Below are positions 1,924 through 31,439 of a stretch of 32,000 nt of DNA, piece by piece (the stretch's first letter is position 1; each line of letters opens with the position of its first letter). The stretch lies in contig CABMIH010000006.1 in NCBI GenBank assembly GCA_902386205.1, forward strand, positions 1 through 32,000, read 5' to 3'. This DNA is from an uncultured archaeon (GTDB lineage Archaea; Halobacteriota; Methanosarcinia; Methanosarcinales; Methanoperedenaceae). The translations under genes and the position numbers were made by a program. The notes beneath the pieces are model-generated. The model was given only the letters and a program-made list of their open reading frames with translations, had not been told where the DNA came from and searched no databases.

Positions 1924-1929
1924 AGACTC

Positions 1930-3369: not shown

Positions 3370-3419
3370 CTTGCTGCCTCAGTTCTAACATATACACGTT
3401 TCTATCATTAGTCATTAAA

Positions 3420-4490
3420 TCACAATCTAAGAATCGAGAGAGATTTTGCCCTTATGCCATCCAACTCTGAAGGCTTTGCCTCTGGTTCACCAAGTCCAGC
3501 AAGCATCTGTGCTCTCTCATGCAAGGCCTTCATTTTTATAATGTACTCATCTGCTAATTTTTCTGCATGCCTGCTGGTCAAATCAGGGCTGAGACTCATG
3601 GTCTGGCACAGGCTTGCCATGTTGGTTTTGGCGCTATCCCAATTATTCGCTTTGGCAACTTGAGCCTCTTCAGTCACTCGTTCCCAAAGCGGATAAAAAG
3701 GTAATGTCGTTATATCGCTTCTTTCTGATGTTTGATTGATACTATATAGCACATAATCAGCATCTCGGAAAGGTTTAGCATCTGCAAGACTTCTGCCATA
3801 GACGAGTTTGTGTTCGCGTACCCAAAGTCCGTTGATGTTCAACTGTGCTTCAGGCATATGGATCAACGCATAATAACTCGGTTCAAAAACTTCTACTGCT
3901 GGGGAGACCTCCTTGCGGAATCCAATGATGGGTACTGTACCATCAAGTTCCAGCAGTGCTTGAACACCATCCAGCACAACACCTGCGACCTTCACATAGG
4001 CAGTGAGGGAGGTGCCAAAATCAAAAACGTTCGCTGCACTCTCAACCATCTGCAGCAGTTTTCTTCCATAGTTCTCACGTTGCACACGATATAGTATTAC
4101 AGACAGAGCTAATTGACCTCCTTTATATGGATGTAATCCCGCCACTTTGGTATCAGAGAAGATCATACCCTCTTTTGGTATCTTGATCCCGTACTTCTCC
4201 ATCATAATTGGGCCAACAACGAATGGCACGGTTTCCACATCTTTGCCATATACGAATTCAGAGACTACAAATACCATAGGATCAAATTTATTGAACCACT
4301 CTCTGCTATAAGCGAGATACATTTCGTTAACTCGCACTTCAAAGTAGTTCTCATTTGGTTTGAAAGCCTTCCGTAACCTTTCACCCTCATCAATATGGTC
4401 AGTAGGAATGGCCACCCGGGTTGGCATTTGTGCCTTGCTTTGACGGATACTATTCCAAATATTTACCCACCTCTCTGTAAGAGATTTCAT
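3420..4490 (-). CDS. Hypothetical protein (first gene of the CHAT/TPR operon)
   Basis: 356-aa ORF with an ATG start preceded by AGGGG. It lies 50 nt upstream of the CHAT gene on the same strand. I recognise no motif. No TM segment is evident. The C-terminal ~90 aa look helical. Confidence 0.7.
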   Translation of the reverse strand: MKSLTERWVNIWNSIRQSKAQMPTRVAIPTDHIDEGERLRKAFKPNENYFEVRVNEMYLAYSREWFNKFDPMVFVVSEFVYGKDVETVPFVVGPIMMEKYGIKIPKEGMIFSDTKVAGLHPYKGGQLALSVILYRVQRENYGRKLLQMVESAANVFDFGTSLTAYVKVAGVVLDGVQALLELDGTVPIIGFRKEVSPAVEVFEPSYYALIHMPEAQLNINGLWVREHKLVYGRSLADAKPFRDADYVLYSINQTSERSDITTLPFYPLWERVTEEAQVAKANNWDSAKTNMASLCQTMSLSPDLTSRHAEKLADEYIIKMKALHERAQMLAGLGEPEAKPSELDGIRAKSLSILRL

Positions 4491-4690
4491 ACTAGCCCCT
4501 TTTTATAACCTTTACTCAAATACTATCTTTTTTATATCCAATATACCTTTCGGTAGCGGATACCTTCTCGTATGCTCAGACTGTGCGGAAAGTAAATTCG
4601 AAAACCTGAGTTCATCTCCCAATTTCATAATAAATCTGGCAGATTTATCCAAAAATTCTCATATAGAAAAACTACCGAGTAATCTCGGAA

Positions 4691-4957
4691 TCAATAAAGA
4701 GAGTCAACTTTAAATGTAGCCATTTCCCCCATCAATTTGTCTACTCCCACAATATTAATGACTCTTGTAATGTCATAAGCAAGCATGGTAAGGCTAATTT
4801 CAGTACCAACTTTATGCAATTTTTTCAATAGCAGATAACCTTGATTAAAAGACCTCTTTATAGTCCTAAAAGGATGTTCAACTACATCCTGCCTTTTCTT
4901 TACCTCGTCTATATTTTCTTTCACTCTTTTTCTATTTTCTTCCATGGGCCTCCTCAA
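4691..4957 (-). pseudogene. IS1182/IS5-like transposase, C-terminal fragment only
   Basis: VEHPFRTIKRSFNQGYLLLKKLHKVGTEISLTMLAYDITRVINIVG matches the conserved C-terminal block of IS1182/IS5-type DDE transposases. The ORF is only 88 aa with a TTG pseudo-start, and the catalytic N-terminal part is missing. Confidence 0.6.
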
Positions 4958-5313
4958 ACTCCATTCGAATCAGAATTCTTCCTCCTTTATAGGAGGTACA
5001 TTTTGGTCTGAATTCACAGCTGCTGCAGTTTTCAGTTCTATATAATTTCTCTTTTCTTGCATCGTATGTTGCCCATAATCTCAATTCGTTTCATGCTTTC
5101 TGATATGAAAAAGTAATCTAACGATGCTTCTTCATGGTTATCTATGAACGCAGTTCATAGCCAACTCTATCCTCTAATGGTAACTTTGATAGATAGCGAT
5201 CAGTATCTCTTTCCAGTACAGCTTTCAAATTATGTATGTCCTCAACCATGTTAAACCTCACTTTATTTGCCTGCTTATAAACTCCAAAGTAGGCTTTTGT
5301 TATGGTTAAAGGA

Positions 5314-5385
5314 AGCCACGGGAGGGATTTGAACCCTCGACCTCGTCCTTACCAAGGACGCGCTATACCCCTAAGCCACCGAGGC
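5314..5385 (-). tRNA. tRNA-Thr (anticodon GGU)
   Basis: Hand-folded cloverleaf on the reverse complement: GCCTCGG-TG-GCTT..AGC-G-CGTCC-TTGGTAA-GGACG-AGGTC-GAGGG-TTCAAAT-CCCTC-CCGTGGC-T. There is one U4:U69 mismatch in the acceptor stem. No CCA is encoded. Confidence 0.85.
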
Positions 5386-5411
5386 ACATATGATCGTTTT
5401 TTCAATTGAAG

Positions 5412-5486
5412 CGGGCCCGGAGGGATTCGAACCCTCGACATCCGGGTTAGAAGCCCGGCGCTATATCCAAGCTAAGCCACGAGCCC
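5412..5486 (-). tRNA. tRNA-Arg (anticodon UCU)
   Basis: Hand-folded. Acceptor GGGCTCG/CGGGCCC, anticodon arm CCGGG-CTTCTAA-CCCGG, T-arm GAGGG-TTCGAAT-CCCTC, discriminator G. An A/T-rich TATA-like box (TTTTTAAAT) lies about 25-35 nt upstream on the minus strand. Confidence 0.9.
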
Positions 5487-5541
5487 AGCGCGAAACCTCA
5501 AGATGTCCTGATGATTTAAAAACCTTTTGTGGAAATGGGAC

Positions 5542-6585
5542 TCAAATCCCATACTCTTTTCTGAGAGCTTCAATCTCAGGCAGGAGTATATAGTCCAGCG
5601 ACGTGCCTTTTGCCCCTTTAATTTCCATCAGGTCAACAATTTCCCTGTACTTCCCGCCGGCAAGTCCGTTGGCAACAAGGGCCGCACCCTCTGCGGCTTC
5701 TTTTACGTTCTTCACATGAAAACCCTCAAGTCTTCTCACAGGCGCTATGTCGATATGTTTTTTAAATTCCTCAAATAATCCCTTTGTCCTTGAGATTCTT
5801 CCAGAGACCAGGATTTCCTGCGGTTTTACAGAAGCCGTGAGCGAAAGGATATCTTTGATCCCGCTTTCCAGGTATGCATTCAGGGCTTCATCATTTTCCA
5901 TCAATTTTTCGGGGGTTCCTGCGATTGTCCCGACCCCGCCTTTAAAAATAAGTTCTTTACTGATGCCGCCTAAAAGATACGCAAGCTCAGCATCCATACC
6001 TCCCATTGAAAGAAAACCAATATTCCCCGAGCTTCCCCCGATCCCATCTACGATTTTCCCATCTTTAACAGCTACGGCAGCAGTATATCCAAAACCCATC
6101 TCAAGCATTATGAATGATGTTTCATTATAATTTTTATTATTCCTCAATGCCTGGTCCCTGATGCCAAGGGCTGCACAGCAGAGCTTATCGGCAGTACCCA
6201 TATCGACTTTATTAAATTTCCTGTATGCTGGAACCGTGGGTAGATGGATAACCCCCGGAATGAACATGATGGGGAGCCCTTTTTGTTTCAGGTGGTTTAT
6301 TGACCTTCGCATTCCAAGAATACTTTTATCATTCCCTTTTTTAATAAGTGACATAAGGAAGAGCTCACGCTCACCTATATCTTTGATATTTGAAAGAGGA
6401 ATGCCAAAGCCTGATGGTCCAACTACCAGGTCGGCCTTTGTGTCCACAATGATATCAGAAATCTTCCCCGGATCATTAATTATATCATGTGTAGATATGG
6501 AAGTATTAAGAATTACATTATCGTCTTCCAGGCCGCAGAAATCAAAACTTTTGGTTCCCGGGTCTATTCCGATTACTCTGACCAT
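5542..6585 (-). CDS. DUF1464-family ASKHA (actin/sugar-kinase-like) ATPase-fold protein
   Basis: 347 aa. The N-terminal phosphate-1 motif VIGIDPGTKSFD and later glycine-rich motifs (GFGYTAA, DGIGGSSG) are typical of the ASKHA fold. Overall it resembles archaeal DUF1464 proteins as I recall them. Confidence 0.75.
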   Translation of the reverse strand: MVRVIGIDPGTKSFDFCGLEDDNVILNTSISTHDIINDPGKISDIIVDTKADLVVGPSGFGIPLSNIKDIGERELFLMSLIKKGNDKSILGMRRSINHLKQKGLPIMFIPGVIHLPTVPAYRKFNKVDMGTADKLCCAALGIRDQALRNNKNYNETSFIMLEMGFGYTAAVAVKDGKIVDGIGGSSGNIGFLSMGGMDAELAYLLGGISKELIFKGGVGTIAGTPEKLMENDEALNAYLESGIKDILSLTASVKPQEILVSGRISRTKGLFEEFKKHIDIAPVRRLEGFHVKNVKEAAEGAALVANGLAGGKYREIVDLMEIKGAKGTSLDYILLPEIEALRKEYGI

Positions 6586-6635
6586 ACCCCAAAGTAATCA
6601 TCCTGACTCATTAATGTTTTTATTTTTCCGGATAA

Positions 6636-6818
6636 TTATGTCTTTGGCGGTTTCCTTTCTACCACTTTCATCCAATGGCCCGGACTGACCTCAGCAAGAA
6701 CAGGAACATTGGGCGCAAGTTCATCAAAGTAAATCGTTTCCTCACCCAGCGGGTGGATATCACCGCCGCATACAGGACATTTTTCAAAAAACGTTTTTCT
6801 TTTTCTAAGCTCTGCCAT
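6636..6818 (-). CDS. Small hypothetical protein with a CPxCG zinc-knuckle
   Basis: 60 aa with ATG preceded by a strong GGGAGG RBS. It lies 50 nt upstream of the DUF1464 gene on the same strand. Confidence 0.55.
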   Translation of the reverse strand: MAELRKRKTFFEKCPVCGGDIHPLGEETIYFDELAPNVPVLAEVSPGHWMKVVERKPPKT

Positions 6819-7320
6819 AAACCTCCCTTCACTGTTAGAGTTGGATTAAGACAGGATAAAAGTATTGGTGAAAGAAATCGAGGAAAAAAAGAACGACCGG
6901 ACCGGACTTGCTTAAGCCATTATTAAAGCCTTCATGGCGTCGTTGCTCAGATAAATTTCAAACATTCAATTCGGCAAGGGCATCATCAAGTCTGATTCTT
7001 TCGCCACGCCTCATCATTGTATCTCTGGACACTTTGGATTGCGACAATGAGAGACCTCCAACAGGCTATAGTTTGATAGAAGTAAGATGTTATGAAAAGT
7101 GCCGAGGTATGGTTGGAATGAGCCGAAAAGCGGCTACCCCATGCAAATCATTCATTTCTTATCATTTCCCGAAATAATTTTCTATTTCTTAACTTCTTTT
7201 ACCTTTTGTACTGTTTTCATAAAATTCACCATCCAAACATCTTGAAAGCAAAGCCCAACCAGACCTCTGGGTGCATCTTTCTTATGAAAGCCTGATTTGG
7301 GGTTTCGGCTCGTCTCAGAT

Positions 7321-7833
7321 TCAATGATCCGTGAGGTCGATTGCATGATCTGCTTTACCATTTTTATCCCGTTTATTGGCATAGAATTGCGTCCCATGAT
7401 CAGATATTACGGACCTGATCGGATACCAGTAGCTATATTTTTCAATTGCATCTGTCAATACCTTCAGAGAGTTCTCTTCAGTAGCGTTGTCAAATTCTTC
7501 TGCTGCCAGCACTTTTCTCGATGCGTCATCCAGAATAGTGCACAACTGCTTTCCATTGACCTTACTTTCGTGCCAATCGATATGAACCGCTGATAGCGAA
7601 TGTTTCCGTTCATATCGTATCCAGGGCTTTCTTCGCTTCTGCTTGCTCTCCTGCTCTTTGGCAAATCCGAATTCGAGCTTCAGAAACTTCCTTTTTTGGT
7701 CTCCCGGGTTGACGCCAATTGCAGGTATATGACCTGTTAATCTGTATATTTTATGGATCTGCCTGAACCGTCTTGGTGTAATACCGAGATACTTAGAATG
7801 AGGAAATTTTTTTGGGAAAAGATATCTTTCAGA
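7321..7833 (-). pseudogene. rve/DDE-type (integrase-core) transposase remnant, truncated at both ends
   Basis: HTH-like LGITPRRFRQIHKIYRLTGHIP, then the first two acidic motifs (VHIDWHE; LDDASR; VISDHGTQF). The ORF stops before the catalytic Glu region. The apparent N-terminus of ORF 7321..8016 runs antisense into hppA and is spurious. ORF 7182..7397 may be a frameshifted continuation. Confidence 0.6.
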
Positions 7834-7841
7834 GGTAAACA

Positions 7842-7853
7842 ATATATATAAAT
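7842..7853 (+). promoter_or_regulatory. TATA-like box upstream of hppA
   Basis: ATATATATAAAT lies 36-47 nt upstream of ATG 7889. A GGAGG lies 5 nt upstream of that ATG. Confidence 0.4.
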
Positions 7854-7888
7854 AGCACCAAGTGGGCGAAGATATTCTGGAGGATATT

Positions 7889-9955
7889 ATGGATTCTTTG
7901 TTATATTCGGCCCCTCTTGCGGGCTTGGTCGGTTTATTATTCGCAGTGTATCTTGCTTTGTATATACTCAAACTGGATGCAGGGACAGAAAGAATGAAAG
8001 CCATCGCATCTGCCATACAGGAAGGTGCAATGGCTTACCTGAACAGGCAGTACAGGACAGTGGCGATCATTGCCGTGATACTTGCCATCTTGATCGCAGT
8101 TGCCATAAATATTGAGACCGCCGCAGGGTTTATCCTGGGCGCGGTCATGTCAGCCGCGGCCGGTTATCTCGGCATGAACATATCCGTAAGGAGCAACGTG
8201 CGCTGCGCGAATGCCGCAAAAGAAGGCATGCAGAAAGCACTGACCGTTGCGTTCAAGGGTGGTGCTGTTACAGGAATATCAGTGGCAAGCCTTGCGCTCC
8301 TGGGCGTAAGCGGACTCTACATCGCTTTCGGCGGAGATATAAAAGCTGTTGAGAAAGTAGTCGGGTTCGGCTTTGGCGCTTCGCTCATAAGCCTTTTCGC
8401 AAGGATTGGCGGGGGGATATACACCAAGGCGGCCGATGTGGGAACTGACCTTGTGGGGAAAGTGGAAGCAGGTATTCCCGAGGACGACCCACGCAACCCG
8501 GGTGTTATTGCTGACAATGTAGGAGATAACGTGGGCGACTGCGCCGGGATGGCAGCCGACCTTTTCGAAACCTATGCAGTGACGGCGCTCGGAGCGATGC
8601 TCATTGGAGTTACTGTCATTGATAAATACCCGAATGCGATCCTTTATCCGCTTGTGCTCGGCGCGGCAGCCATAATCGCCTCCATAATCGGTACCTTCTT
8701 TGTAAAGTTAGGAAAGTCCGGCGACATAATGGGGGCTATGTATAAAGGCGCGATAGTGGCAGGATTGATATCTGTAGTGCTGTTTTACCTGATAACACAG
8801 AAGTTGATGGGGGGCAATACAGGTCTTTTCATCAGCGCGCTTGTAGGTCTTGGCGTAACAGCGGCAATGATCATTATCACCGAATATTACACAGCCACGA
8901 CCCATGGCCCGGTAAAGGATATAGCCAATGCATCAGTAACAGGCCCCGGGACAAATATCATAACCGGGCTTGCTGTTGGCCTTCAGAGTACTGCTTTGCC
9001 TGTAATGGTCATATGCGCCGGGATATTGATCTCATTTTTTGTTAACGGCGGCGTTGCCAACCCATCAATGGGACTTTACGGGATAGCCATAGCTGCGGCA
9101 GCCATGCTTTCAGTTACAGGCATCATAATTTCCATCGACTCATATGGACCAATAACAGATAATGCAGGCGGGATAGCAGAAATGGCGGAGATGTCAAAGG
9201 AAGTCAGAGACATCACCGATCCGCTTGATGCAGTGGGCAATACCACAAAGGCAGTTACGAAGGGTTATGCCATAGGCTCAGCAGCCCTGGGGGCGCTTGC
9301 GCTTTATGCGGCATACAGCAGTGAAATCAACAAACTGCTTATGGAGCAGGGGAGGCCGGAACTGGTGCTTAAACTGTCTGATCCAATGGTCTTAATAGGT
9401 CTGCTCATCGGAGGAATGATCCCTTTCCTCTTCGCTAGCTTCCTCATGAGAGCTGTGGGAAGGGCGGCATCAACTATAGTTTCTGAGATCAGGCGGCAGT
9501 TCAGGGAGATAGCCGGAATCATGGAAGGAAAGGCAAAACCCGACTACGGGCGCTGCGTGGATATCGTGACAATAGCAGCCCAGAAGGAAATGATCATACC
9601 AGGACTCCTCGCAGTGCTTTCCCCTCTCCTTGTGGGCTTCATTTTCGGCCCGGCGGCGCTTGGAGGCCTTCTTATCGGGGTTATTATTTCAGGTCTGCTT
9701 CTTGCCCTCATGATGACGACAGGCGGGGCGGCATGGGATAACGCCAAGAAGTACATCGAGTCTGGCAACCTTGGAGGTAAGAGATTACCCGATGGCAGCA
9801 AGAACCCGACGCACGCTGCGGCAGTGGTGGGCGACACAGTGGGCGACCCTACGAAGGATACGGCAGGTCCTGCGATCAATCCGCTGATAAAAGTAATGAA
9901 TATAGTGGCGATATTGTTTGCGGCACTGATACTGAAATACAGCCTGATCAGATAA
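7889..9955 (+). CDS. hppA: Membrane-bound H+-translocating inorganic pyrophosphatase, K+-independent type
   Basis: Highly hydrophobic ~690-aa protein with signature motifs [34 protein letters not shown] and [13 protein letters not shown] prefer ATG 7889 (GGAGG RBS) over the GTG at 7862 given in the ORF track. Confidence 0.95.
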
Positions 9956-16536: not shown

Positions 16537-16564
16537 AACAAAATTGTTATATAACATTTTTGTT
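16537..16564. terminator. AT-rich imperfect palindrome between convergent dys and the HEPN gene
   Basis: 14-nt arms with one mismatch, centred on 16550/16551 (core TGTTAT|ATAACA). It is flanked by A8 and T5 runs and overlaps the HEPN stop codon. Confidence 0.35.
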
Positions 16565-17003
16565 ATGCAATCTGAATTTTATAATTTTTCTTTAGAAATG
16601 GCAACAAAATCTTAAAAACCATTTGCATTCTCGTTTCATTCATTTTCGCATCATCAAGAGTGTATATTTGAGATGGAATCCTTATTCCCTCATCGCTCCA
16701 GTCAGGATACCTTGAAATTGCCCAGTTTTCTTCAAGAGGGACAACCCCTTCTTCGAGCGTCACCATTATTTGTGCGTCCATTTTATCTTCAAATTCTTTC
16801 AAGAAAAAGGAGAAGATTTCATGTTTATAGATGCCAATTTTGCCTTCTGCTGCAAGGCAAGCTTTTAGCAATTTTTCCACTGCCTGCTGGGCATGATAAA
16901 CCGCAAGGTTGAATTTTTCTTTTTCGATAAGCATGGAAACAACATCATAGTCATTATTTGCCTCTATAAGATACGCTTTTGCGACATCCAGTTTCTTTAT
17001 CAT
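16563..17003 (-). CDS. HEPN-domain protein (toxin-like partner of MNT)
   Basis: 146 aa. AVYHAQQAVEKLLKACL is typical of classical HEPN. There is a 4-nt overlap with the upstream MNT gene. The usual Rx4-6H appears as KIGIYKH. Confidence 0.75.
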   Translation of the reverse strand: MIKKLDVAKAYLIEANNDYDVVSMLIEKEKFNLAVYHAQQAVEKLLKACLAAEGKIGIYKHEIFSFFLKEFEDKMDAQIMVTLEEGVVPLEENWAISRYPDWSDEGIRIPSQIYTLDDAKMNETRMQMVFKILLPFLKKNYKIQIA

Positions 17004-17419
17004 GCCACCACTTCCCAGTAATCCTCATGGTTAACAACCCTGCTCGGGACTATCTGTTTAAAATGTTTTAATAATTTATCAAATGTGCCGTCATCATATA
17101 ATGGAATCCCATAGTTGAGAATATTGAGAATAAGCGGATTAAGTGTTTCCAGTGAGGTTTCCAGTTCTTCGATTGACGCAACCTTTGGAGATACCTGGCC
17201 TACTGTGCGGTAAAGCCTTTTCCTTAACTCTATTTCAAGGTCTCTGCGTTCCATCCAGTTTGCGAATTTCTTGTTTAAGATGATAAGAATGTCAATGTCA
17301 GAATATTTTTGAGCGTAGCCTTTCGCATAGGAACCATATAAAATTATACTGCAAAGTTTGTCTTGAAATTTGGCTTTTAATTCTGATACTACTTTTTCGG
17401 AAAGCTTGGAAGAAATCAT
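17000..17419 (-). CDS. Minimal nucleotidyltransferase (MNT) domain protein
   Basis: GSx10SDxD signature LYGSYAKGYAQKYSDIDILIIL. I prefer ATG at 17419; the track start at 17428 is TTG. Confidence 0.8.
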   Translation of the reverse strand: MISSKLSEKVVSELKAKFQDKLCSIILYGSYAKGYAQKYSDIDILIILNKKFANWMERRDLEIELRKRLYRTVGQVSPKVASIEELETSLETLNPLILNILNYGIPLYDDGTFDKLLKHFKQIVPSRVVNHEDYWEVVA

Positions 17420-17431
17420 TTTAATCAACTC

Positions 17432-23967: not shown

Positions 23968-24127
23968 AGACGATTAATCATGAAGCATCTGAGGAATCAT
24001 GTAGCAAAAATGTTCTTTGAAACCTGTATGATGGCGAATCCAAATGTGGTGATATGTTTTTAATCAAATAAATATCTATAAATAATTGATAAAAGAGTAT
24101 ATATGAAACGGTAGTGATATTTATTTG

Positions 24128-24604
24128 ATGATGGAAAAAATCAATCGTAAGAAAAAAAATAATAAATATTTACTTATATTACCTTGTTCGAAACAGAAAA
24201 AAGAACTGTACAGTACATCTGCCCTGGAATTATACGACGGCCCCTTTTATCGTGTAGTCCGAAAAAATCAACCAAAAAATTTAGACATTTTAATTCTTTC
24301 TGCTAAATATGGATTAATCAGTTCTGACAATCTTATTTCTTATTATGACCAAATAATGACCCCTAAAAGAGCTGAAGAACTTGCCAGTAAGATTATGATG
24401 AAACTGGAAAGGATATTTACAAATGAAGATTATAATGAAGTATTCATAAATCTTGGAAAAAACTACTTGCCTGCATTAGATGGATCAAAAAAAATACTTG
24501 ATGAACATAATGTAAATTGGGCAAATGGACAAATTGGCGAGAGACTGCATCAACTTAAAACATGGCTCAATACAATTAGAGCAACAGAGAGATTGGTCTC
24601 ATGA
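24128..24604 (+). CDS. DUF6884-like small protein (function unknown)
   Basis: YLLILPCSKQKK...ALELYDGPFYRVV...ILILSAKYGLISSDNLISYYDQIMT matches the pattern I recall for DUF6884 proteins (ACSxxK ... LY ... ILSAKYGL ... YD). ATG 24128 or 24131; the track start 24125 is TTG. Its stop overlaps the helicase ATG (ATGA). Confidence 0.6.
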   Translation: MMEKINRKKKNNKYLLILPCSKQKKELYSTSALELYDGPFYRVVRKNQPKNLDILILSAKYGLISSDNLISYYDQIMTPKRAEELASKIMMKLERIFTNEDYNEVFINLGKNYLPALDGSKKILDEHNVNWANGQIGERLHQLKTWLNTIRATERLVS

Positions 24605-27015
24605 TTAGCTGGAATGATTTTGAGCATGCTGTAATAAATCAACTTAATCCACCTAGAAATATTAATAATCAGTATAATCCAGAACAAAATAATGCCATTC
24701 ATGCTCCTCAGAACCAATCTTTATTCTTAGCAGCAGGGCCAGGTAGCGGAAAAACAACTGTTATAACACTAAGGATCTTAAAACTCATTTTTGTAGATAA
24801 TGTTGATACATCAAGTATTTTAGTTACAACATTCACACGAAAAGCTGCCGCAGAATTAAGCTCAAGAATACTTGGATGGGGAGACCAACTTAAAAGGATT
24901 TTCTTGTCTCATCCATCTTACATTTCTATTAAAAATCAACTTGAGATTATAAATTTTAATAACATTACAATCGGAACTTTGGATAGTATAGTAGAAGAAA
25001 AATTAGGATATTATCGCCCAGCAGGTGCGCCTAATCCGGTGGTCATCGAGGACTTTGTATCCAATGCTTTGATGATTAAATTTGGTCTTTTTTTGCATAA
25101 TAGGCATAATAATAGCAATCTTAAAGATTATATACTGAATTTAAAATGCTCGTCACTTCCCCCCAATCCTTCAGAAATGAGTTCTACTTTAAGAGAAATT
25201 AAAGATAGAATATATCATGACCAAATAAATATTAACCAATATAGGTCTCAATCCCATCATCAGGGTATTCCAGTGGCATGTGATGCGATAGACGATTATA
25301 ATCAAGAATTACAGGATAGATTACTTTTCGATTTTACTAGATTAGAGCATGAATTTTTGTTTCAACTTCGAGCAGGAACATTAAAAACATTTCTGGAAGA
25401 TATTAATTTTATCCTTATCGATGAATACCAAGATACAAATTATCTACAAGAACAAATATATTTTGAGTTATCAAGGGCAGCATTACAAAATATGGGTAGT
25501 ATAACAGTTGTGGGTGATGATGACCAATCACTTTATCGTTTTCGCGGTGCCACTGTAGATTTGTTCCAAGAGTTCCTAAATAGAACGAACAGTCAATTAA
25601 ATCTTGTTCCTCGACTAATATATCTCTCTCAAAACTATAGATCTACCCCGATGATAGTTAGTTTTTGTAATAGATATATTAGTTTGGATAGTCAATTTCA
25701 AAATGCTCGTGTTTTAGGTAAACCTCCAATAATACCAGCACGACAAATGAATCCTCAATCTCATAACTATCCTGTCTTGGGAATGTTTAGAGATGATGTT
25801 GATACGCTTGCTCATGACTTAGGATTATTTATTCATAGAGTAATTCACGGCAGAGGTGTTCAAATTCAATATCAGGGTAATATATTTACGATACATACTG
25901 ATCAACAAAATGGCTCTCCTGCTGATATCGCGTTATTATTTAGTTCACCAAAAGAATTTAGTTCAAATGGAAATTCAAGACTTCCTTTGCTGTTACGCAA
26001 TGAATTAAGGAACCTATCACCACAAATTCAGATTTTTAATCCGCGCGGGCAGGATTTAGAACTAATACAAGATGTTCAAAGATTATGTGGTTTGATTCTG
26101 GAATGTATAGACCCTAATAGTAGAATACAAAATGATATACAGAGATTGCCGCAAGATGCCAGAGATAGACTTAACGAGTGGAGAAGAGAGGCGGTTAATT
26201 TTATAAACAGTAATCCTTTACATCAAACTCCAAGAAATCTAGGAGATTTTGTAGATGCTTGGAGAAATAGAAGACCTCTTGGAAGGCAAGTTCGTAGTAG
26301 AAAGTGGGAAGTTCCACTACTAGATTTAGTTTATAAACTAGTTACATGGATTCCCAATATGCAAAACGATATAGAGGGATTAGTTTATCTTGAAGCGATA
26401 TCAAGAACTATCAATCAAGCGGGTTTATTTGGTAATTATGAATCTAAAATAATTATTGATACAAATAATACAAATTTAGAATTCGACTCTGTTAATGAAG
26501 CTCTATGGAATATTTTTATACCTATTGCCACAGGTGCAATCAAAATAAACGAAGACCTTCTTGAAACTCTGCCAAATGATAGAATAAATGTAATGTCTGT
26601 TCATCAAGCAAAAGGGCTTGAGTTTCCATTGGTTGTCGTCGATGTAGGAAGCGACTTCAAAACAGATCACTGGAAACAAAGATTTAGACGTTTTCCGCAA
26701 CTGAATAATAACGGGAACGTAGAGGATGGAAAAAGTGTAAATTTGGAAAATGAACTAAGACCTCATTGCATTGACCCTCAATTAAGGCAATTACAAAGAA
26801 CAAGTTTGGATAGAGCATTTGATGATTTAACAAGACAATATTTTGTATCCTTTAGCAGGGCTCAAGATGTATTATTATTAGTTGGTTTGAATTCAGTTAG
26901 AAATGGTTATAATAGCCGTTCTGGAAGAAAAGAAATTCCAAATATCGCAACAGGTTGGAATAGAAATAGAAACTGGGACTGGGGTCGAGGATTGCCTAAT
27001 TTATATCATATATAG
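24601..27015 (+). CDS. UvrD/Rep/PcrA-like superfamily-1 DNA helicase
   Basis: SF1 motifs in order: I AAGPGSGKTTVIT, Ia VTTFTRKAAAELSSRI, II ILIDEYQDTN, III VVGDDDQSLYRFRGA, IV LSQNYRSTPMIV, V/VI VMSVHQAKGLEFPLVVV and YVSFSRAQDVLLLV. Confidence 0.9.
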   Translation: MISWNDFEHAVINQLNPPRNINNQYNPEQNNAIHAPQNQSLFLAAGPGSGKTTVITLRILKLIFVDNVDTSSILVTTFTRKAAAELSSRILGWGDQLKRIFLSHPSYISIKNQLEIINFNNITIGTLDSIVEEKLGYYRPAGAPNPVVIEDFVSNALMIKFGLFLHNRHNNSNLKDYILNLKCSSLPPNPSEMSSTLREIKDRIYHDQININQYRSQSHHQGIPVACDAIDDYNQELQDRLLFDFTRLEHEFLFQLRAGTLKTFLEDINFILIDEYQDTNYLQEQIYFELSRAALQNMGSITVVGDDDQSLYRFRGATVDLFQEFLNRTNSQLNLVPRLIYLSQNYRSTPMIVSFCNRYISLDSQFQNARVLGKPPIIPARQMNPQSHNYPVLGMFRDDVDTLAHDLGLFIHRVIHGRGVQIQYQGNIFTIHTDQQNGSPADIALLFSSPKEFSSNGNSRLPLLLRNELRNLSPQIQIFNPRGQDLELIQDVQRLCGLILECIDPNSRIQNDIQRLPQDARDRLNEWRREAVNFINSNPLHQTPRNLGDFVDAWRNRRPLGRQVRSRKWEVPLLDLVYKLVTWIPNMQNDIEGLVYLEAISRTINQAGLFGNYESKIIIDTNNTNLEFDSVNEALWNIFIPIATGAIKINEDLLETLPNDRINVMSVHQAKGLEFPLVVVDVGSDFKTDHWKQRFRRFPQLNNNGNVEDGKSVNLENELRPHCIDPQLRQLQRTSLDRAFDDLTRQYFVSFSRAQDVLLLVGLNSVRNGYNSRSGRKEIPNIATGWNRNRNWDWGRGLPNLYHI

Positions 27016-27026
27016 AAGGAATAAAC

Positions 27027-28220
27027 ATGTCGTTATCTGTTAGATCTAAACCTTATATAATCCCAGAATATAGTCTTACTGGAGATTTATTATCGTATCT
27101 TACCTGTGGATTACAATATAGATATCAAAATAAAGGTTCTCTTCCCCCATCTAAACCAGTTCAATTATGGTTTGGAGAATTTATTCATGGTGTTATGGAA
27201 GAAGCCTATCGTGAATGGCAACAAAACCCACAAAAAAGAAGGTTTCCATGGAATTGGAATTCAGAAATACGCGATATTGAACTCAGAATCCATCGAAGAT
27301 TGAGTGCGAGGGGTTTAAATCCTCCACCAGGGCAATTTTGCAGATATGATTCACCTTCAAATACTCAAAGATTATGTCCCGATGCTAAGCACCCTCATAA
27401 ACTTCTAGCTAGTAAAAGAACTGAAGCGGCAATTAACACATGGGGAAAACACTTATTTCCTTTAATTAATGAAGCAGAAGTCAAACTTAAGGGTATAAGA
27501 GATATGCCAAGCTATAATCCAAGAGTTAGTAGATCGAATTATTACGGTATTACTGGGATTATCGATGTAATAAGTTCAGTACATCTTGCTAATGCGCCAT
27601 CGGGAAATTTAATTCTTCATGAAATACACCAAAATTCACAGATACAGCAAGTAATAGATAATTTGACATCACCAGAGTATGAAATTATTATCGATTATAA
27701 GGGGATGAGAAGACCATCTAACTTAGCTGATAAATGGAATTATCATGAATGGCAAATTCTAACCTATGCGGGGCTTAGAAAACAACAGCCACAATCTAAG
27801 CCTATAGTTGCAGGAATACTCTTTTATCTCAATGAATTGATCCCTTCTAAAACAGACATAAAACTATTGAAACCTGAAGTTGTAAACAATGAAACAGATA
27901 TTATGCCTTCTGGGCTCGATTTACGAAATATCATAAATTGGATACCTAGACCGAGAACAGATGCACCTGTACTTACTCTTCCATTTAGAGAATCACGATC
28001 AATCCGAGTTATACCAATTCTTCCCAGTAATATACAAAATGGTTTTCAAAATTTTGATAATGTCGTAGATGAGATCGAAAGCTCAATACTTTCAGAAACC
28101 TCTGGTCAACTAATTAATTCATGCTGGAGAGCTATGGCTCATAGAGAAACATGCACTGCATGCGATTTTAAAACATTTTGTCGAAGCTCTGCTCAACGTG
28201 GTGCACCTACAGTACCATAA
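27027..28220 (+). CDS. PD-(D/E)xK nuclease with a Cas4/AddB-type Fe-S cluster (iron-staple) signature
   Basis: N-terminal Cys (YLTCGLQYRY), GEFIHGVMEE, GIIDVIS ... IIIDYKG (D...DxK), QILTYA (QxxxY), and a C-terminal CTACDFKTFC (C-x2-C-x5-C). Confidence 0.8.
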   Translation: MSLSVRSKPYIIPEYSLTGDLLSYLTCGLQYRYQNKGSLPPSKPVQLWFGEFIHGVMEEAYREWQQNPQKRRFPWNWNSEIRDIELRIHRRLSARGLNPPPGQFCRYDSPSNTQRLCPDAKHPHKLLASKRTEAAINTWGKHLFPLINEAEVKLKGIRDMPSYNPRVSRSNYYGITGIIDVISSVHLANAPSGNLILHEIHQNSQIQQVIDNLTSPEYEIIIDYKGMRRPSNLADKWNYHEWQILTYAGLRKQQPQSKPIVAGILFYLNELIPSKTDIKLLKPEVVNNETDIMPSGLDLRNIINWIPRPRTDAPVLTLPFRESRSIRVIPILPSNIQNGFQNFDNVVDEIESSILSETSGQLINSCWRAMAHRETCTACDFKTFCRSSAQRGAPTVP

Positions 28221-28222
28221 AT

Positions 28223-29530
28223 ATGGAATATGACATGAAATTGAAATATTTTCTGCCGGATTGGGAAGACCGATTAGACCCTGATTTTAATTTTGCTACT
28301 GATAAATATTCCAAAAAACATGATGCAGACCCCTATAACTATGATTTTTATGCCCATCAATTATTTGATAAACCACCTTATGATGGGATATTATTTAGTT
28401 TGAGTGTATTTCAATCAAAAATAACATTAAAAAATGGGGATAATGAAACATACACAATTAGAAACCATACAAATATCAGGGATTATTTAAAAATCCCAAA
28501 AGATTCTTCTTTGAAAGTTATGGGCGATTGCGGCGCCTTTGGTTACGTTAAAGAGAAAGCGCCACCACTGCCGTTTTATAGTGTTGAGAATGTTTCAAAT
28601 ATTTACGATAAATTAGGATTTGACTATGGAGTTTCTGTGGATCATCTGGTTGTTGACTATGTAATGGTTAGAGATGAAATAACAGGAAAGAAGTTAAAAA
28701 ATATTCTTTCCAGAGATGAGAAGGATGAAAGGATAGAAATTACACTAAAAAATGCTAAAAAGTTTCTAAAATTACATAATAAAAAAAAATATAATTTTAT
28801 TCCTATTGGCGTAGCACAGGGTTATGATACAGATACTTATAGGGAATCTGTTAAATCATTAATTGAAATGGGGTATAAATATATCGCTCTTGGTGGGCTT
28901 GTTCAGTACAAATCAGATTTTATAATAGGGATTTTAACGGAAATACAACCATTTATAAAAGGTATAAATGTTCACTTATTTGGTGTTTTAAGACCAGGTC
29001 ATCTAAATGATTTTGAAAGTTTTGGAGTTACAAGCTTTGATAGTGCATCATTTTTACGCAAAGCATGGCTCAGATCAGGGCAGAACTATTTAGCCCCAAA
29101 TGGGAAATGGTACGCTGCGATAAGAGTGCCGCAGGCCACAAATCCGCGGCTTTTAAAACATGCCAATTTAAATGGCTTTTCAATAGACGATCTGATAAAG
29201 ATGGAGCAGGATGCATTGCGAGCATTAATTAAGTATGATAAAGGAAAAATTAATGTAGACGATACACTGGATATTATTTTAAAATATGATAATCTTCTTC
29301 TCCGCGATTCAAATGATGGAGAGAACCTAAAAGAAAAATATGAGCGTACGCTGTTAGATAGGCCCTGGAAATCTTGCAGTTGTAATGTTTGTAAAAAAAT
29401 AGGAATACATGTGATTATATTCAGGGGAACAAATCGAAATAAAAGAAGAGGATTTCATAATACATGGATTTTTAGGGAAGTCGCAGAAATTATTAATTTC
29501 AATAAGAGGGAGGAAAATGCTGACTTATAA
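28223..29530 (+). CDS. tRNA-guanine-transglycosylase-family paralogue, DpdA-like (putative DNA guanine transglycosylase)
   Basis: TIM-barrel TGT motifs: Asp in MGDCGAFGY (cf. TDSGGFQ), ALGGLV, HLFGV, nucleophile Asp in FDSASF, and a zinc site CSCNVC...FHN (CxCxxC-x22-H). N-terminal FLPDWEDRLDPDFNF resembles DpdA N-termini as I recall them. I see no PUA or other tRNA-binding extension. I prefer ATG 28223 (2 nt after the nuclease stop) over 28178. Confidence 0.7.
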   Translation: MEYDMKLKYFLPDWEDRLDPDFNFATDKYSKKHDADPYNYDFYAHQLFDKPPYDGILFSLSVFQSKITLKNGDNETYTIRNHTNIRDYLKIPKDSSLKVMGDCGAFGYVKEKAPPLPFYSVENVSNIYDKLGFDYGVSVDHLVVDYVMVRDEITGKKLKNILSRDEKDERIEITLKNAKKFLKLHNKKKYNFIPIGVAQGYDTDTYRESVKSLIEMGYKYIALGGLVQYKSDFIIGILTEIQPFIKGINVHLFGVLRPGHLNDFESFGVTSFDSASFLRKAWLRSGQNYLAPNGKWYAAIRVPQATNPRLLKHANLNGFSIDDLIKMEQDALRALIKYDKGKINVDDTLDIILKYDNLLLRDSNDGENLKEKYERTLLDRPWKSCSCNVCKKIGIHVIIFRGTNRNKRRGFHNTWIFREVAEIINFNKREENADL

Positions 29531-29819
29531 AACCATATTAACCAAACTCGAAGAAAATAAAGCCGCTATAAAAAAATTCGGCGTCAAAAGAATCGGCCTA
29601 TTCGGTTCATATCTCAGGAATGAACAAAAACCCACAAGTGATATCGATATACTGGTTGAATTCGAAAAAGGCAAAATAACATTCGATAACTACATGGAGC
29701 TCAAATTCTTTTTAGAAGACCTGTTCAAAATTAAAGTTGACCTCGTAATGGAAGATGCGATTAAACCGGATTTAAAGCCGTATATCCTTGGGAGTGTAAA
29801 ATATGCAGCGAGCGCATGA
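29517..29819 (+). CDS. mntA: MntA-type minimal nucleotidyltransferase (antitoxin)
   Basis: [21 protein letters not shown] signature. GAGGGAGGA RBS. 14-nt overlap with the TGT-like gene. Confidence 0.85.
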
Positions 29820-30141
29820 GGCTTATCTTAAAGATATTCTTGAGGCCATCCGTAAAATTGAAAAATATACTGAAAAATTGACCTATGAGGAATTCCTGAA
29901 AGATGAATTAAGACAGGATGGGGTAGTGAAAAATCTGGAAATTATTGGAGAAGCGGTCAAGAGAATCCCGTCTGAGATCAAGAATAAAAAACCGGAAATT
30001 GAGTGGAAAAAGATTGCCGGGTTAAGAGATATTCTTACACATGAATATTTTGGAATAAATTTCGAAATCGTATGGGATGTAACAAAGAACAAGCTCCCGG
30101 ATTTGAAAAAAGAAACTCAGGAACTTCTTTCTGGGCTGTAA
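29803..30141 (+). CDS. hepT: HepT-type (DUF86) HEPN ribonuclease toxin
   Basis: 112 aa with the Rx4H motif [11 protein letters not shown] near the C-terminus. 17-nt overlap with mntA. Confidence 0.85.
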
Positions 30142-31251: not shown

Positions 31252-31326
31252 GCTCCGATAGTGTAGCACGGCCAATCATGTCAGACTCTCACTCTGACGA
31301 CTGGGGTTCAAATCCCCATCGGAGCA
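31252..31326 (+). tRNA. tRNA-Glu (anticodon CUC)
   Basis: Hand-folded. Acceptor GCTCCGA/TCGGAGC, anticodon arm TCAGA-CTCTCAC-TCTGA, T-arm TGGGG-TTCAAAT-CCCCA, discriminator A. No CCA is encoded. Confidence 0.9.
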
Positions 31327-31439
31327 CTTAATTTTCCTGGATGCTCCCTGTTTTTAACTTGATTATTGAAGTTTATTGAAAGGATATTGTTACCAGATCA
31401 TCTGGTTTCTTCATAGAAAAAAGTGAAAAAAAGGAGGAT

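What the first reader, a model, noticed from the sequence alone, without database searches (positions are those of the whole stretch)
28223..29530. TGT paralogue keeps both catalytic Asp residues and the zinc site but has no tRNA-binding extension and no cis preQ0 pathway
Seen: Asp in MGDCGAFGY (codon 28526-28528) and Asp in FDSASF (codon 29039-29041) align by motif with the general-acid and nucleophile Asp residues of TGT enzymes (TDSGGFQ and FDCV contexts). CSCNVC (29375-29392) plus His in FHN (29456-29458) reproduces the CxCxxC...H zinc site. The protein ends shortly after the zinc site, so I see no PUA-like domain of the kind ArcTGT carries. It is embedded among DNA-acting enzymes rather than tRNA or queuosine/archaeosine genes. 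Inference: it is an active base-exchange enzyme whose substrate is DNA.
Basis: partly seen in the sequence, partly recalled or inferred. Interest (0 to 1): 0.8.

Follow-up and report, generated by a model that had tools for sequence, protein, structure and literature searches.

The report
Archaeal DpdA in DpdB-less cassette
The gene is a clear member of the known DpdA family, enzymes that swap guanine in DNA for a 7-deazaguanine base. It sits in a compact four-gene cassette that lacks the usual DpdB helper and that I could not find described in the papers available to me.

Summary
ORF 28223-29530 (435 aa) has D102, D273, C385-x-C387-xx-C390 and H412 at the stated codons, and it ends 23 residues after the His.

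It is not an unclassified TGT paralogue. It is a DpdA, the DNA-guanine transglycosylase: NCBIfam equivalog 434.6 bits against a cutoff of 200, E 1e-86 to Salmonella DpdA (7UI4), and model TM 0.80-0.84.

The context is less ordinary. The gene closes a low-GC (0.34 versus 0.44) co-directional cassette of four genes:
- a 159-aa DUF6884 protein of the DpdC / ArcS-C1 / YaaA fold
- a UvrD-like helicase
- a Cas4/AddB-like Fe-S nuclease
- DpdA

No DpdB lies in the window. This DpdB-less arrangement recurs across archaea and bacteria. Its DpdA forms a clade separate from the DpdB-linked one. DUF6884 is fused to DpdA at either end in some relatives. The helicase-nuclease pair is replaced by NurA-HerA or a DpdJ-like helicase in others.

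My favoured reading is a compact Dpd-type modification-restriction system using host preQ0. A link to DNA repair is not excluded, and nothing here was tested biochemically.

The parts
24125..24604 (+). DUF6884 protein (159 aa; ATG at 24128). It is a small DpdC / ArcS-C1 / YaaA-superfamily protein with PCSKQK (CxxxK) and LSAKYG (LSAxxG) motifs, and the likely partner of DpdA.
   Evidence: Pfam DUF6884 1.1e-14 and DUF5591 4e-5. PADLOC PDC-M57A 3.6e-12 and DpdC 7.4e-7. AF2 pLDDT 86. Foldseek top PDB hit is 2Q07 (E 1.4e-4, TMq 0.51), with YaaA 5CAJ at prob 0.97. hhalign to the DpdC N-terminus gives E 2e-4 with the motifs aligned. It is fused to DpdA in relatives.
24601..27015 (+). UvrD-like SF1 helicase (804 aa). 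Its start overlaps the stop of the DUF6884 gene (ATGA).
   Evidence: Pfam UvrD-helicase 3.4e-46 and UvrD_C. Closest solved relatives are UvrD1, UvrD, AddA and PcrA. Motifs I, Ia, II, III and VI are conserved in 40 relatives.
27027..28220 (+). PD-(D/E)XK nuclease of Cas4/AddB type (397 aa) with four Cys predicted to bind an Fe-S cluster.
   Evidence: Pfam PDDEXK_1 7.5e-12 and weak Cas4 hits. C27, D180, D223-Y-K225, Q243, Y247, C376, C379 and C385 are conserved in 32-33 of 33 relatives. The helicase is always upstream (67 of 67 loci).
28223..29530 (+). DpdA, a DNA-guanine transglycosylase (435 aa, or 431 aa from ATG 28235).
   Evidence: NCBIfam NF041059 434.6 bits. PADLOC DpdA 3.7e-128. 7UI4 at E 1.2e-86. 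AF2 pLDDT 85, TM 0.80/0.84 to 7UI4.
28526..28528 (+). D102, the predicted general acid/base (Salmonella Asp95).
28640..28642 (+). [quoted passage not shown]
29039..29041 (+). D273, the predicted nucleophile (Salmonella Asp256).
29375..29458 (+). Structural Zn site: C385, C387, C390 ... H412.
29517..30141 (+). MNT (29517-29819) and HepT (29803-30141) toxin-antitoxin pair. It overlaps the 3' end of dpdA and is a neighbour rather than a shown component.
   Evidence: Pfam NTP_transf_2 4.8e-17 and HepT-like 9.5e-34. MNT/HepT also abut the cassette in L037, L042, L004, L168 and L169.
24062..29630 (.). Low-GC segment holding the cassette. GC over 24125-29530 is 0.337, against 0.438 in the flanks. The segment is conserved at 78.6% DNA identity at the same site (after ubiX-ubiD) in a Ca. 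Methanoperedens MAG.

Best explanation
ORF 28223-29530 encodes a DpdA. This is a TIM-barrel transglycosylase that flips a target guanine out of double-stranded DNA. It displaces the base through a covalent Asp273-deoxyribose intermediate, with Asp102 as acid/base, and it installs 7-cyano-7-deazaguanine (preQ0). This mechanism is inferred from 37% identity to the characterised Salmonella enzyme.

The host looks like a Methanoperedens-type archaeon, which would make preQ0 anyway for tRNA archaeosine. That would explain why no synthesis genes are needed in cis (inferred).

DpdA is the last gene of a horizontally acquired four-gene cassette. This cassette is a DpdB-less variant of the Dpd modification-restriction system.

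- The DUF6884 protein is DpdA's dedicated partner. This is shown by conserved linkage and by fusions at either end of DpdA. It either processes the inserted base or helps DpdA reach its target; which of the two is unresolved.
- The UvrD-like helicase and the Cas4/AddB-like Fe-S nuclease form an autonomous end-resection-type motor-nuclease module. I infer that it degrades DNA lacking the mark.
For: DpdA identity:
- The family, structure and residue evidence is, with residue roles from PMC10164549.

The cassette is real:
- The same gene set recurs in about 31 of about 45 DpdB-less loci, spanning nine archaeal and many bacterial lineages.
- It is present at 85% protein identity at the same chromosomal site in a Methanoperedens MAG.
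- The genes are tightly packed and co-directional, and GC is 0.337 against 0.438 in the flanks.

DpdB-less clade:
- Iterated searches find DpdB in every classic locus, but none in the window and none in any cassette locus except L047.
- An NJ tree of 77 DpdA sequences splits 38 DpdB-linked from 39 DpdB-less at the midpoint root.

DUF6884-DpdA coupling:
- N-terminal fusions occur in L033-35, L038 and L042. C-terminal fusions occur in L004, L007 and L011.
- Fourteen of the top 120 DpdA homologues carry both Pfam domains.
- The two genes are adjacent in Halorubrum virus HRTV-29, in a phage contig (L082) and in the Rosebush/Qyrzula phages.

preQ0 link:
- YhhQ-family transporter genes abut the cassette in four Chloroflexi loci, and QueC does so in two others.

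The motor-nuclease pair is a separable effector:
- Its catalytic motifs are intact.
- It is replaced by NurA-HerA in L017, L019, L027, L031 and L053, and by a DpdJ-like helicase in L024.
- The pair also exists without DpdA.
- It co-occurs with classic DpdABC in L052, L061 and L074, so it is not simply a substitute for DpdB.
- The viral copies (HRTV-29, L082) have DpdA and DUF6884 with no adjacent nuclease, as expected if those two genes form the modification half.

Defence-type neighbours:
- RM methylases, GmrSD, HNH, integrases, zeta toxin and MNT/HepT lie in the flanks.
- In M. aeolicus an MmeI/Eco57I-type RM is inserted inside the cassette.
Against: - No biochemical or mass-spectrometry data exist for this clade.
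- The only reconstituted DpdA (Salmonella) requires the DpdB ATPase (PMC10164549), and DpdB is absent here.
- Restriction by the helicase-nuclease pair is inferred only from analogy and modularity.
- The pair's closest relatives often lie next to Mre11-Rad50, and 40 of 69 relatives have no DpdA. The pair may therefore be primarily a repair machine.
- Phage Rosebush encodes a DUF6884 protein with intact motifs, yet its DNA carries dPreQ0 with negligible dADG (PMC6884629). This argues against a simple DpdC-like hydratase role for DUF6884.
- The DUF6884 protein lacks the roughly 200-residue C-terminal half of DpdC.
- The NJ tree has no bootstrap support.
Confidence: 0.6

Rival explanations
1. The cassette belongs to DNA double-strand-break processing rather than defence. 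In this reading DpdA and DUF6884 mark or process DNA in concert with an end-resection machine. The mark could modulate resection in a Chi-like way, or the enzymes could act at damaged guanines or abasic sites.
For: - The partners of DpdA are all resection-type machines: an AddAB-like UvrD plus Cas4-like nuclease, or NurA-HerA.
- Close relatives of the helicase-nuclease pair sit directly after Mre11-Rad50 in L123, L125, L132, L134-136, L141 and L169, and near Rad50 in M. paludis.
- L017 reads DUF6884-NurA-HerA-DpdA-Mre11-like.
- In L169 a DUF6884 gene lies beside Mre11-Rad50 with no DpdA in view.
- DUF6884 is related to YaaA (peroxide stress), and YfjM was recovered as a binder of abasic lesions (PMC11701544).
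Against: - The distribution is patchy across phyla. The cassette has island-like low GC, and the DpdA tree mixes archaea and bacteria. These features fit an accessory, mobile function better than core repair.
- The flanks hold RM, toxin-antitoxin and integrase genes.
- preQ0 transporter and QueC genes lie next to the cassette.
- The classic Dpd system is described in the literature as a restriction-modification system (PMC10164549, PMC5699537).
Confidence: 0.17
2. The whole cassette is a modification machine with no restriction role. In this reading the helicase supplies the ATP-driven DNA opening that DpdB provides in Salmonella, and the nuclease has an accessory role.
For: - Salmonella DpdA needs an ATPase (PMC10164549).
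- Every complete cellular DpdB-less locus has some ATPase motor beside DpdA: UvrD-like, HerA, DpdJ-like, or BrxC/D-like.
Against: - The same helicase-nuclease pair co-occurs with DpdB in the classic loci L052, L061, L074 and L115.
- The motor always comes with a catalytically intact nuclease.
- The pair is autonomous in 40 of 69 relatives.
- The viral copies (HRTV-29, L082) carry DpdA and DUF6884 without the pair.
- Phage DpdAs modify DNA without DpdB (PMC6884629).
Confidence: 0.12
3. The protein is the organism's housekeeping tRNA-guanine transglycosylase (ArcTGT) in a trimmed form.
For: - It hits Pfam TGT (1.3e-10).
- The host is archaeal and needs preQ0 insertion into tRNA.
- The rest of the genome could not be inspected.
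Against: - TgtA equivalog 26.7 bits against a cutoff of 350, and Tgt 29.8 against 306.75.
- No C1/C2/PUA domains are present.
- TM is about 0.41 to ArcTGT against 0.80 to DpdA.
- The same clade occurs in bacteria, in one case next to a canonical Tgt gene.
- The gene lies in a low-GC island.
Confidence: 0.01

Closest known systems
Salmonella enterica Montevideo DpdA (PDB 7UI4) and the classic Dpd system (DpdA-K)
   Same: The enzyme family is the same: 37% identity, E 1e-86, TM 0.80-0.84. The catalytic Asp triad, the Zn site and the spacing match, and both lack tRNA-binding domains. The logic is also shared: a 7-deazaguanine modification gene sits beside helicase and nuclease genes.
   Different: There is no DpdB, which is found with dpdA in 92% of genomes per PMC5699537 and is essential in vitro. 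There is no full-length DpdC and no DpdD-K. The cassette has four genes (about 5.4 kb) rather than about 20 kb. Its DpdA falls in a separate clade. Position 199 is Gln where Salmonella has His181, although Gln is the rule in both clades.
Viral DpdA modules with a standalone C1/YaaA-like protein (Vibrio phage nt-1 'ArcS', Halorubrum virus HRTV-29 gp32-gp33, Mycobacterium phage Rosebush gp2...gp8)
   Same: A small DUF6884/DUF5591-fold protein is encoded beside a DpdA. These viruses either use host preQ0 or carry the pathway themselves (PMC10516641, PMC8651126).
   Different: The viral DpdAs belong to other subfamilies; HRTV-29 DpdA has 243 aa and does not match the window's profile. HRTV-29 and the L082 phage contig have no helicase-nuclease partner. 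The role of the module is anti-restriction for a virus rather than self-marking of a cell.
ArcTGT + ArcS (archaeal tRNA archaeosine pathway)
   Same: Both use a TGT-fold enzyme that inserts preQ0, plus a C1-type domain carrying a PC-x3-K motif that acts on the inserted base. Here the two are separate genes, and they are fused in relatives.
   Different: The predicted substrate is DNA. There are no PUA or C2 domains. The ArcS motif PC-x3-KPY-x2-S-x2-H is only partly kept (PC-x3-K, then S at +9; no PY and no H) (PMC10516641).
BREX-related capture (BRC) systems with TGT, GNAT and HerA/FtsK (PMC12839542)
   Same: This is a DpdB-less system in which a TGT homologue is combined with a DNA translocase, found in both archaea and bacteria.
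   Different: BRC has PglZ, a BrxC-like ATPase, a STAND NTPase and DUF4007, and no DpdC-like protein. The cassette here has none of those, and it always has DUF6884.
AddAB/AdnAB and HerA-NurA end-resection machines
   Same: Both pair a UvrD-family helicase with a RecB-fold nuclease bearing a Cx2Cx5C Fe-S cluster motif. The pair is interchangeable with NurA-HerA in relatives, and some relatives lie next to Mre11-Rad50.
   Different: The proteins are far below the AddA/AddB equivalog cutoffs (141.9 against 707.65). The nuclease is a separate 397-aa protein with no helicase-like domain. Here the pair is linked to a DNA-modification enzyme.

Membership tests
DpdA (DNA-guanine transglycosylase) | Sequence passes the curated family model over its full length | tested here: met
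   NF041059 equivalog 434.6 bits (cutoff 200), residues 7-419 against model 1-401 of 406. PADLOC DpdA 3.7e-128.
DpdA (DNA-guanine transglycosylase) | Catalytic Asp general acid/base, Asp nucleophile and base-reading Asp (Salmonella Asp95, Asp256, Asp130) | tested here: met
   D102, D273 and D140 align to these residues and are invariant in 77 relatives. Roles are from PMC10164549.
DpdA (DNA-guanine transglycosylase) | Structural Zn site CxCx2C...H | tested here: met
   C385, C387, C390 and H412 have the same spacing as Cys368/370/373/His395.
DpdA (DNA-guanine transglycosylase) | DpdA-type TIM barrel with its own insertions and no tRNA-binding C-terminal domains | tested here: met
   The AF2 model (pLDDT 85) has TM 0.80/0.84 to 7UI4 against about 0.4 to tRNA TGTs. 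The protein ends 23 aa after the Zn-site His.
DpdA (DNA-guanine transglycosylase) | Exchanges guanine for preQ0 in dsDNA | not testable with these tools
   This needs a [14C]guanine or preQ0 exchange assay, or LC-MS of genomic DNA.
Classic Dpd system (DpdA-K) | DpdB (ParB/DndB-like ATPase) next to DpdA | tested here: not met
   No DpdB hit in the 32-kb window by an iterated search that finds DpdB in all classic loci. No ParB or DndB Pfam hit.
Classic Dpd system (DpdA-K) | Full-length DpdC (about 320 aa) | tested here: not met
   Only a 159-aa protein homologous to the first ~110 residues of DpdC is present (hhalign E 2e-4, 69 columns). The conserved C-terminal half of DpdC is absent.
Classic Dpd system (DpdA-K) | DpdD-K restriction genes | tested here: not met
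   PADLOC gives only GajB-like and Cas4-like hits for the helicase and nuclease, and no DpdD-K.
ArcTGT / bacterial Tgt (tRNA enzymes) | Passes the TgtA or Tgt equivalog model; ArcTGT additionally has C1-C2-PUA domains | tested here: not met
   TIGR00432 26.7 bits against 350, and TIGR00430 29.8 against 306.75. There is no extension.
ArcS C1 domain (for ORF 24125-24604) | Motif PC-x3-KPY-x2-S-x2-H (PMC10516641) | tested here: not met
   The sequence PCSKQKKELYSTSA keeps P, C, K(+4) and S(+9) but lacks PY and H. The DUF5591 hit is weak (4e-5, 23.9 bits, below the cutoff of 26). The fold match to 2Q07 has TMq 0.51.
DUF6884 (PF21818) (for ORF 24125-24604) | Passes the Pfam gathering score; CxxxK and LSAxxG motifs (PMC11701544) | tested here: met
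   55.1 bits against a cutoff of 30. C-SKQ-K and LSAKYG are present. K24, S58, K60, Y61 and G62 are invariant and C20 is at least 90% conserved in 43 relatives.
Cas4/AddB-type RecB nuclease (for ORF 27027-28220) | D...(D/E)xK and QxxxY catalytic motifs plus four Cys (C...Cx2Cx5C) | tested here: met
   D180, D223-Y-K225, Q243...Y247, and C27, C376, C379, C385 are conserved in 32-33 of 33 relatives. It falls below the Cas4 equivalog cutoff (18.9 against 65), so it is not Cas4 itself.

The most novel reading that the evidence does not exclude
DpdB-independent DpdA defines a second, widespread kind of 7-deazaguanine DNA system. Its obligatory two-part modification unit is DpdA plus a DUF6884 protein, which are sometimes a single polypeptide. 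That unit plugs into interchangeable end-resection machines: UvrD/Cas4-like, NurA-HerA or DpdJ-like. The system would place 7-deazaguanine marks in the chromosomes of archaea, including methanogens and Methanoperedens, where no such DNA modification has been reported in the papers I could search. The DUF6884 partner may carry out chemistry or targeting different from DpdC, because Rosebush DNA stays as dPreQ0.
Probability: 0.45. Interest if true: 0.65.

Novelty: new variant of a known kind. Interest (0 to 1): 0.45.

Why it matters

The value lies in the context.

- The only DpdA reconstituted in vitro needs the DpdB ATPase. A large clade that never has DpdB but always has a DUF6884 partner raises the question of how DNA base exchange is achieved without it, and what the DUF6884 fold does.
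- The cassette offers a four-gene system that is much easier to dissect than the 11-gene Salmonella island.
- It predicts 7-deazaguanine in archaeal chromosomal DNA. This is directly testable in cultured carriers (Methanothermococcus sp. Ax23, Methanococcus aeolicus).
- It links DNA hypermodification to end-resection machines that, in related archaea, sit beside Mre11-Rad50.

Tried and rejected
Searches that led nowhere:
- Exact-sequence look-ups of the window DpdA (435-aa and 431-aa forms), of P0001 and of P0099 found nothing. The source contig was therefore not retrieved, and the rest of the genome could not be checked for tgtA or arcS.
- Sequence searches of the PDB with the DUF6884 profile and with the nuclease found nothing meaningful.
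- Thiaville 2016 and Yuan 2018, the founding Dpd papers, are not held. I cannot exclude that they mention DpdB-less clusters.
- Literature searches for DpdA+UvrD, DpdA with NurA, HerA or Cas4-like (two or more of the four terms), PDC-M57, and DpdA with methanogen names found no description of this cassette.

Readings considered and rejected:
- Housekeeping ArcTGT, on the model scores, the fold and the bacterial relatives.
- Membership of the classic Dpd system, because DpdB, full-length DpdC and DpdD-K are absent.
- The 159-aa protein as an orthologue of DpdC or of ArcS, because only the N-terminal core is shared and the ArcS motif is incomplete.
- The helicase as a simple stand-in for DpdB, because the pair co-occurs with DpdB in some classic loci.
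- A mainly viral origin, because only 2 of 2.9 million IMG/VR contigs carry this DpdA clade.

Full report
**1. The observation**

The ORF at 28223-29530 (+) translates to 435 aa. The protein ends 23 residues after H412. An ATG at 28235 is an equally possible start, since a 100%-identical database entry is 431 aa.

**2. What the protein is**

- It hits Pfam TGT only moderately (1.3e-10).
- It passes NCBI's DpdA equivalog model over its full length (NF041059, 434.6 bits, cutoff 200).
- It fails the tRNA-enzyme models: TgtA 26.7 against 350 and Tgt 29.8 against 306.75. PADLOC's DpdA model gives 3.7e-128.
- The only solved relative by sequence is Salmonella Montevideo DpdA, PDB 7UI4 (E 1.2e-86, residues 5-417).
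- In that alignment D102, D140 and D273 correspond to Asp95 (acid/base), Asp130 (base recognition) and Asp256 (nucleophile). Mutating Asp95 or Asp256 abolishes activity (PMC10164549).
- C385, C387, C390 and H412 correspond to the crystallographic Zn ligands Cys368, Cys370, Cys373 and His395, with identical spacing.
- An AlphaFold2 model (pLDDT 85.4) superposes on 7UI4 with TM 0.80/0.84 and E 1e-36. It superposes on tRNA TGTs, including P. horikoshii ArcTGT, only at TM about 0.4.

However, the family has been named since 2016 and structurally characterised since 2023.

**3. The surroundings**

The window is archaeal and Methanoperedens-like. It encodes PurP, deoxyhypusine synthase, DUF22, multihaem cytochromes and an H+-pyrophosphatase. 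The closest DpdA is labelled Ca. Methanoperedens.

DpdA is the fourth gene of a tight co-directional array (junctions):

| Coordinates | Product | Evidence |
|---|---|---|
| 24125-24604 | DUF6884 protein | |
| 24601-27015 | UvrD-like helicase | |
| 27027-28220 | PD-(D/E)XK nuclease | |
| 28223-29530 | DpdA | |
| 29517-30141 | MNT/HepT toxin-antitoxin pair | |

- GC is 0.337 across the cassette, against 0.438 on both sides.
- No DpdB, and no QueC, QueD, QueE or FolE, is in the window.
- A Methanoperedens MAG has the same four genes at the same place after ubiX-ubiD. DNA identity there is 78.6%, similar to the 75.9% of the flanking ubiXD genes. The insertion therefore predates the split of these two lineages.

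**4. The cassette is a recurrent unit**

I fetched 80 genomic loci encoding DpdA relatives and searched their ORFs with the window's proteins. I also searched them with DpdB, DpdC and DpdJ taken from a classic Comamonas locus. The loci fall into two groups.

- **Classic loci.** These hold the DpdA relatives least similar to the window protein (mostly 35-38% identity; Actinomycetes, Burkholderiales and others). They have full-length DpdC, one or two DpdB genes, and often DpdJ.
- **DpdB-less loci.** With one exception (L047) they hold the DpdA relatives of 39% identity or more and have no DpdB within 10 kb. About 31 of them have the DUF6884 + UvrD-like + PD-(D/E)XK set.
  - Archaeal carriers: Methanoperedens, Pyrohabitans, Methanobacterium, Methanotrichaceae, Methanothermococcus, Methanoregula, Theionarchaea, Thermoplasmata and Altiarchaeota.
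  - Bacterial carriers: Dehalococcoidia, Anaerolineales, Bacteroidota, Bacillaceae, Poribacteria, Ignavibacteriales, Desulfurobacteriaceae, Planctomycetota and a deltaproteobacterium.

A neighbour-joining tree of 77 DpdA sequences splits exactly along this line at the midpoint root, 38 against 39 (no bootstrap). The catalytic and Zn residues are invariant in both halves. Only 2 of 2.9 million viral contigs carry this clade. One of the two holds the full cassette, and the other is a genuine phage carrying DUF6884-DpdA only.

**5. The DUF6884 protein**

- It passes Pfam DUF6884 (55 bits) and weakly hits DUF5591, the ArcS C1 domain. It also weakly hits PADLOC DpdC.
- Comamonas DpdC itself hits DUF6884, as noted in bioRxiv 10.1101/2025.02.24.639861.
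- A profile-profile comparison aligns it with the first ~110 residues of DpdC, with the CxxxK, LYxG and LSAxxG...YD motifs in register (E 2e-4). It lacks DpdC's conserved C-terminal half.
- The AF2 model (pLDDT 86) best matches PDB 2Q07, an A. fulgidus protein of unknown function, and E. coli YaaA. Among viral models it matches phage DUF6884 proteins and the DUF5591 'ArcS' of Vibrio phage nt-1.
- Its link to DpdA is strong. It is fused N-terminally to DpdA in five loci. A second subtype is fused C-terminally in three.
- It also sits beside DpdA in Halorubrum virus HRTV-29 and near the DpdA/preQ0 block of phages Rosebush and Qyrzula.

What it does is open. The shared Cys/Lys motif suggests chemistry on the nitrile of the inserted base, as in DpdC (amide) or ArcS (amidine). 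Against this, Rosebush DNA is 28% dPreQ0 with negligible dADG (PMC6884629). That result speaks against a bulk hydratase role and leaves room for a targeting or base-flipping helper.

**6. The helicase and nuclease**

All SF1 helicase motifs are conserved. So are the RecB-type nuclease motifs (D180, D223-x-K225, Q243...Y247) and a C...Cx2Cx5C cluster (C27, C376, C379, C385). The closest solved helicases are UvrD, AddA and PcrA.

In other DpdB-less loci the pair is replaced:
- by NurA-HerA in L017, L019, L027, L031 and L053 (L037 has a NurA gene as well as a fused helicase-nuclease);
- by a 1363-aa DpdJ-like helicase in L024.

A reverse test started from the nuclease.
- The helicase is upstream in 67 of 67 loci with room for it. 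DpdA is downstream in only 29 of 69.
- The pair is therefore an autonomous module that DpdA and DUF6884 join.
- Where DpdA is absent, the pair often follows Mre11-Rad50.
- The pair also occurs near classic DpdABC in L052, L061, L074 and L115. It is therefore not merely a DpdB substitute.

**7. Other context**

YhhQ-family transporter genes (PF02592, Vut_1), the family of the queuosine-precursor transporter YhhQ, directly abut the cassette in four Chloroflexi loci. QueC does so in two others. This ties the clade to preQ0. The flanks also hold RM methylases, GmrSD, HNH, integrases, zeta toxin and MNT/HepT. In M. aeolicus an RM system is inserted between the helicase and the nuclease.

**8. Interpretation**

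Most likely (about 0.6) this is a compact, DpdB-less Dpd-type modification-restriction system. DpdA, with its DUF6884 partner, would mark host DNA using preQ0 from the archaeosine pathway. A resection-type helicase-nuclease would destroy unmarked DNA.

- **Shown:** family membership, intact catalytic residues, conserved linkage, the fusions, and the modular exchange of the motor-nuclease pair.
- **Inferred:** DNA modification itself, its chemical product, and restriction.

The main rival (about 0.17) is a role tied to double-strand-break processing, prompted by the Mre11-Rad50 and NurA-HerA neighbourhoods. A modification-only machine (about 0.12) and a housekeeping ArcTGT (about 0.01) are less likely.

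**9. Novelty**

The protein is a new member of a known family. The cassette is a variant of the Dpd system that I did not find described in the searchable literature. One recent survey required dpdA and dpdB together and so would have missed it. A 2026 paper describes a different DpdB-less TGT system built around HerA and BREX-like genes. The founding Dpd papers were not available to me, so prior mention cannot be excluded.

Noticed in passing
window 29517-30141 (+) and 16563-17428 (-): There are two MNT/HEPN-type toxin-antitoxin pairs in the window. The first overlaps the 3' end of dpdA by 14 nt. MNT/HepT genes also abut the cassette or the helicase-nuclease pair in L037, L042, L004, L168 and L169.
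   Followed up: partly
L123, L125, L132, L134-136, L141, L168, L169: In DpdA-less relatives, probably Methanobacteriaceae, the same UvrD-like helicase + Cas4-like nuclease pair lies directly downstream of Mre11-Rad50. This is the position HerA-NurA occupies in thermophilic archaea. It may be the missing end-resection machine of mesophilic methanogens.
   Followed up: partly
L017 3173-9808: A Thermodesulfovibrio MAG has DUF6884-NurA-HerA-DpdA followed by an Mre11-like gene. DpdA is thus embedded in what looks like a complete resection operon.
   Followed up: partly
L087 (Mycobacterium phage Rosebush) 1-6508; L085 (Qyrzula): Rosebush gp8 is a DUF6884 protein with intact PC-x3-K and LSAKYG motifs, close to the DpdA-QueC-QueD-QueE-FolE block. 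gp1, next to DpdA, is ParB-like. Published data give dPreQ0 with almost no dADG in this phage, so gp8 is not a bulk DpdC-type converter.
   Followed up: partly
L086 (Halorubrum tailed virus 29) 4986-6111: gp32, annotated 'peroxide stress protein YaaA', is a DUF6884 protein whose gene overlaps that of gp33 DpdA. The paper describing the virus lists it as a metabolic gene unrelated to DpdA.
   Followed up: partly
L006 11330-12022, L009 11346-12107, L033 8217-8918, L036 5222-5917; L030 15094-15762, L042 6501-7199: YhhQ/Vut_1-family transporter genes directly abut the cassette in four Chloroflexi MAGs, and QueC genes do so in a Bacillota and a deltaproteobacterial MAG.
   Followed up: yes
L084 (Methanococcus aeolicus CP104873.1) 1-8281: The cassette is split. 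An MmeI/Eco57I-type RM enzyme and a T5orf172 protein are inserted between the helicase and the nuclease-DpdA genes.
   Followed up: no
window 1930-3369 (-): A CHAT-domain (caspase-like) protein of 479 aa, followed by an unannotated 356-aa ORF (3420-4490). This is possibly another defence-type locus.
   Followed up: no
window 7321-8016 (-): A 231-aa ORF with a partial rve integrase core overlaps the predicted GTG start of the H+-pyrophosphatase gene (7862-9955). It is likely a transposase remnant, or the PPase start is mis-set.
   Followed up: no
window 5314-5486 (-), 31252-31327 (+): tRNA-Thr(GGT), tRNA-Arg(TCT) and tRNA-Glu(CTC) genes. tRNA-Glu lies about 1.1 kb beyond the low-GC region, after a zinc-ribbon protein and a DUF22 protein on the minus strand.
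   Followed up: no
L029, L047: In a Sphingobacterium MAG and a Gemmataceae MAG the whole cassette is broken into several frames. This may be pseudogenisation or assembly error. L047 is the only DpdB-less-clade locus with a DpdB-like gene within 10 kb.
   Followed up: no
window 24125-24604: The best PADLOC hit of the DUF6884 protein is component A of the uncharacterised candidate system PDC-M57 (3.6e-12). The other components of that candidate system could not be inspected.
   Followed up: no
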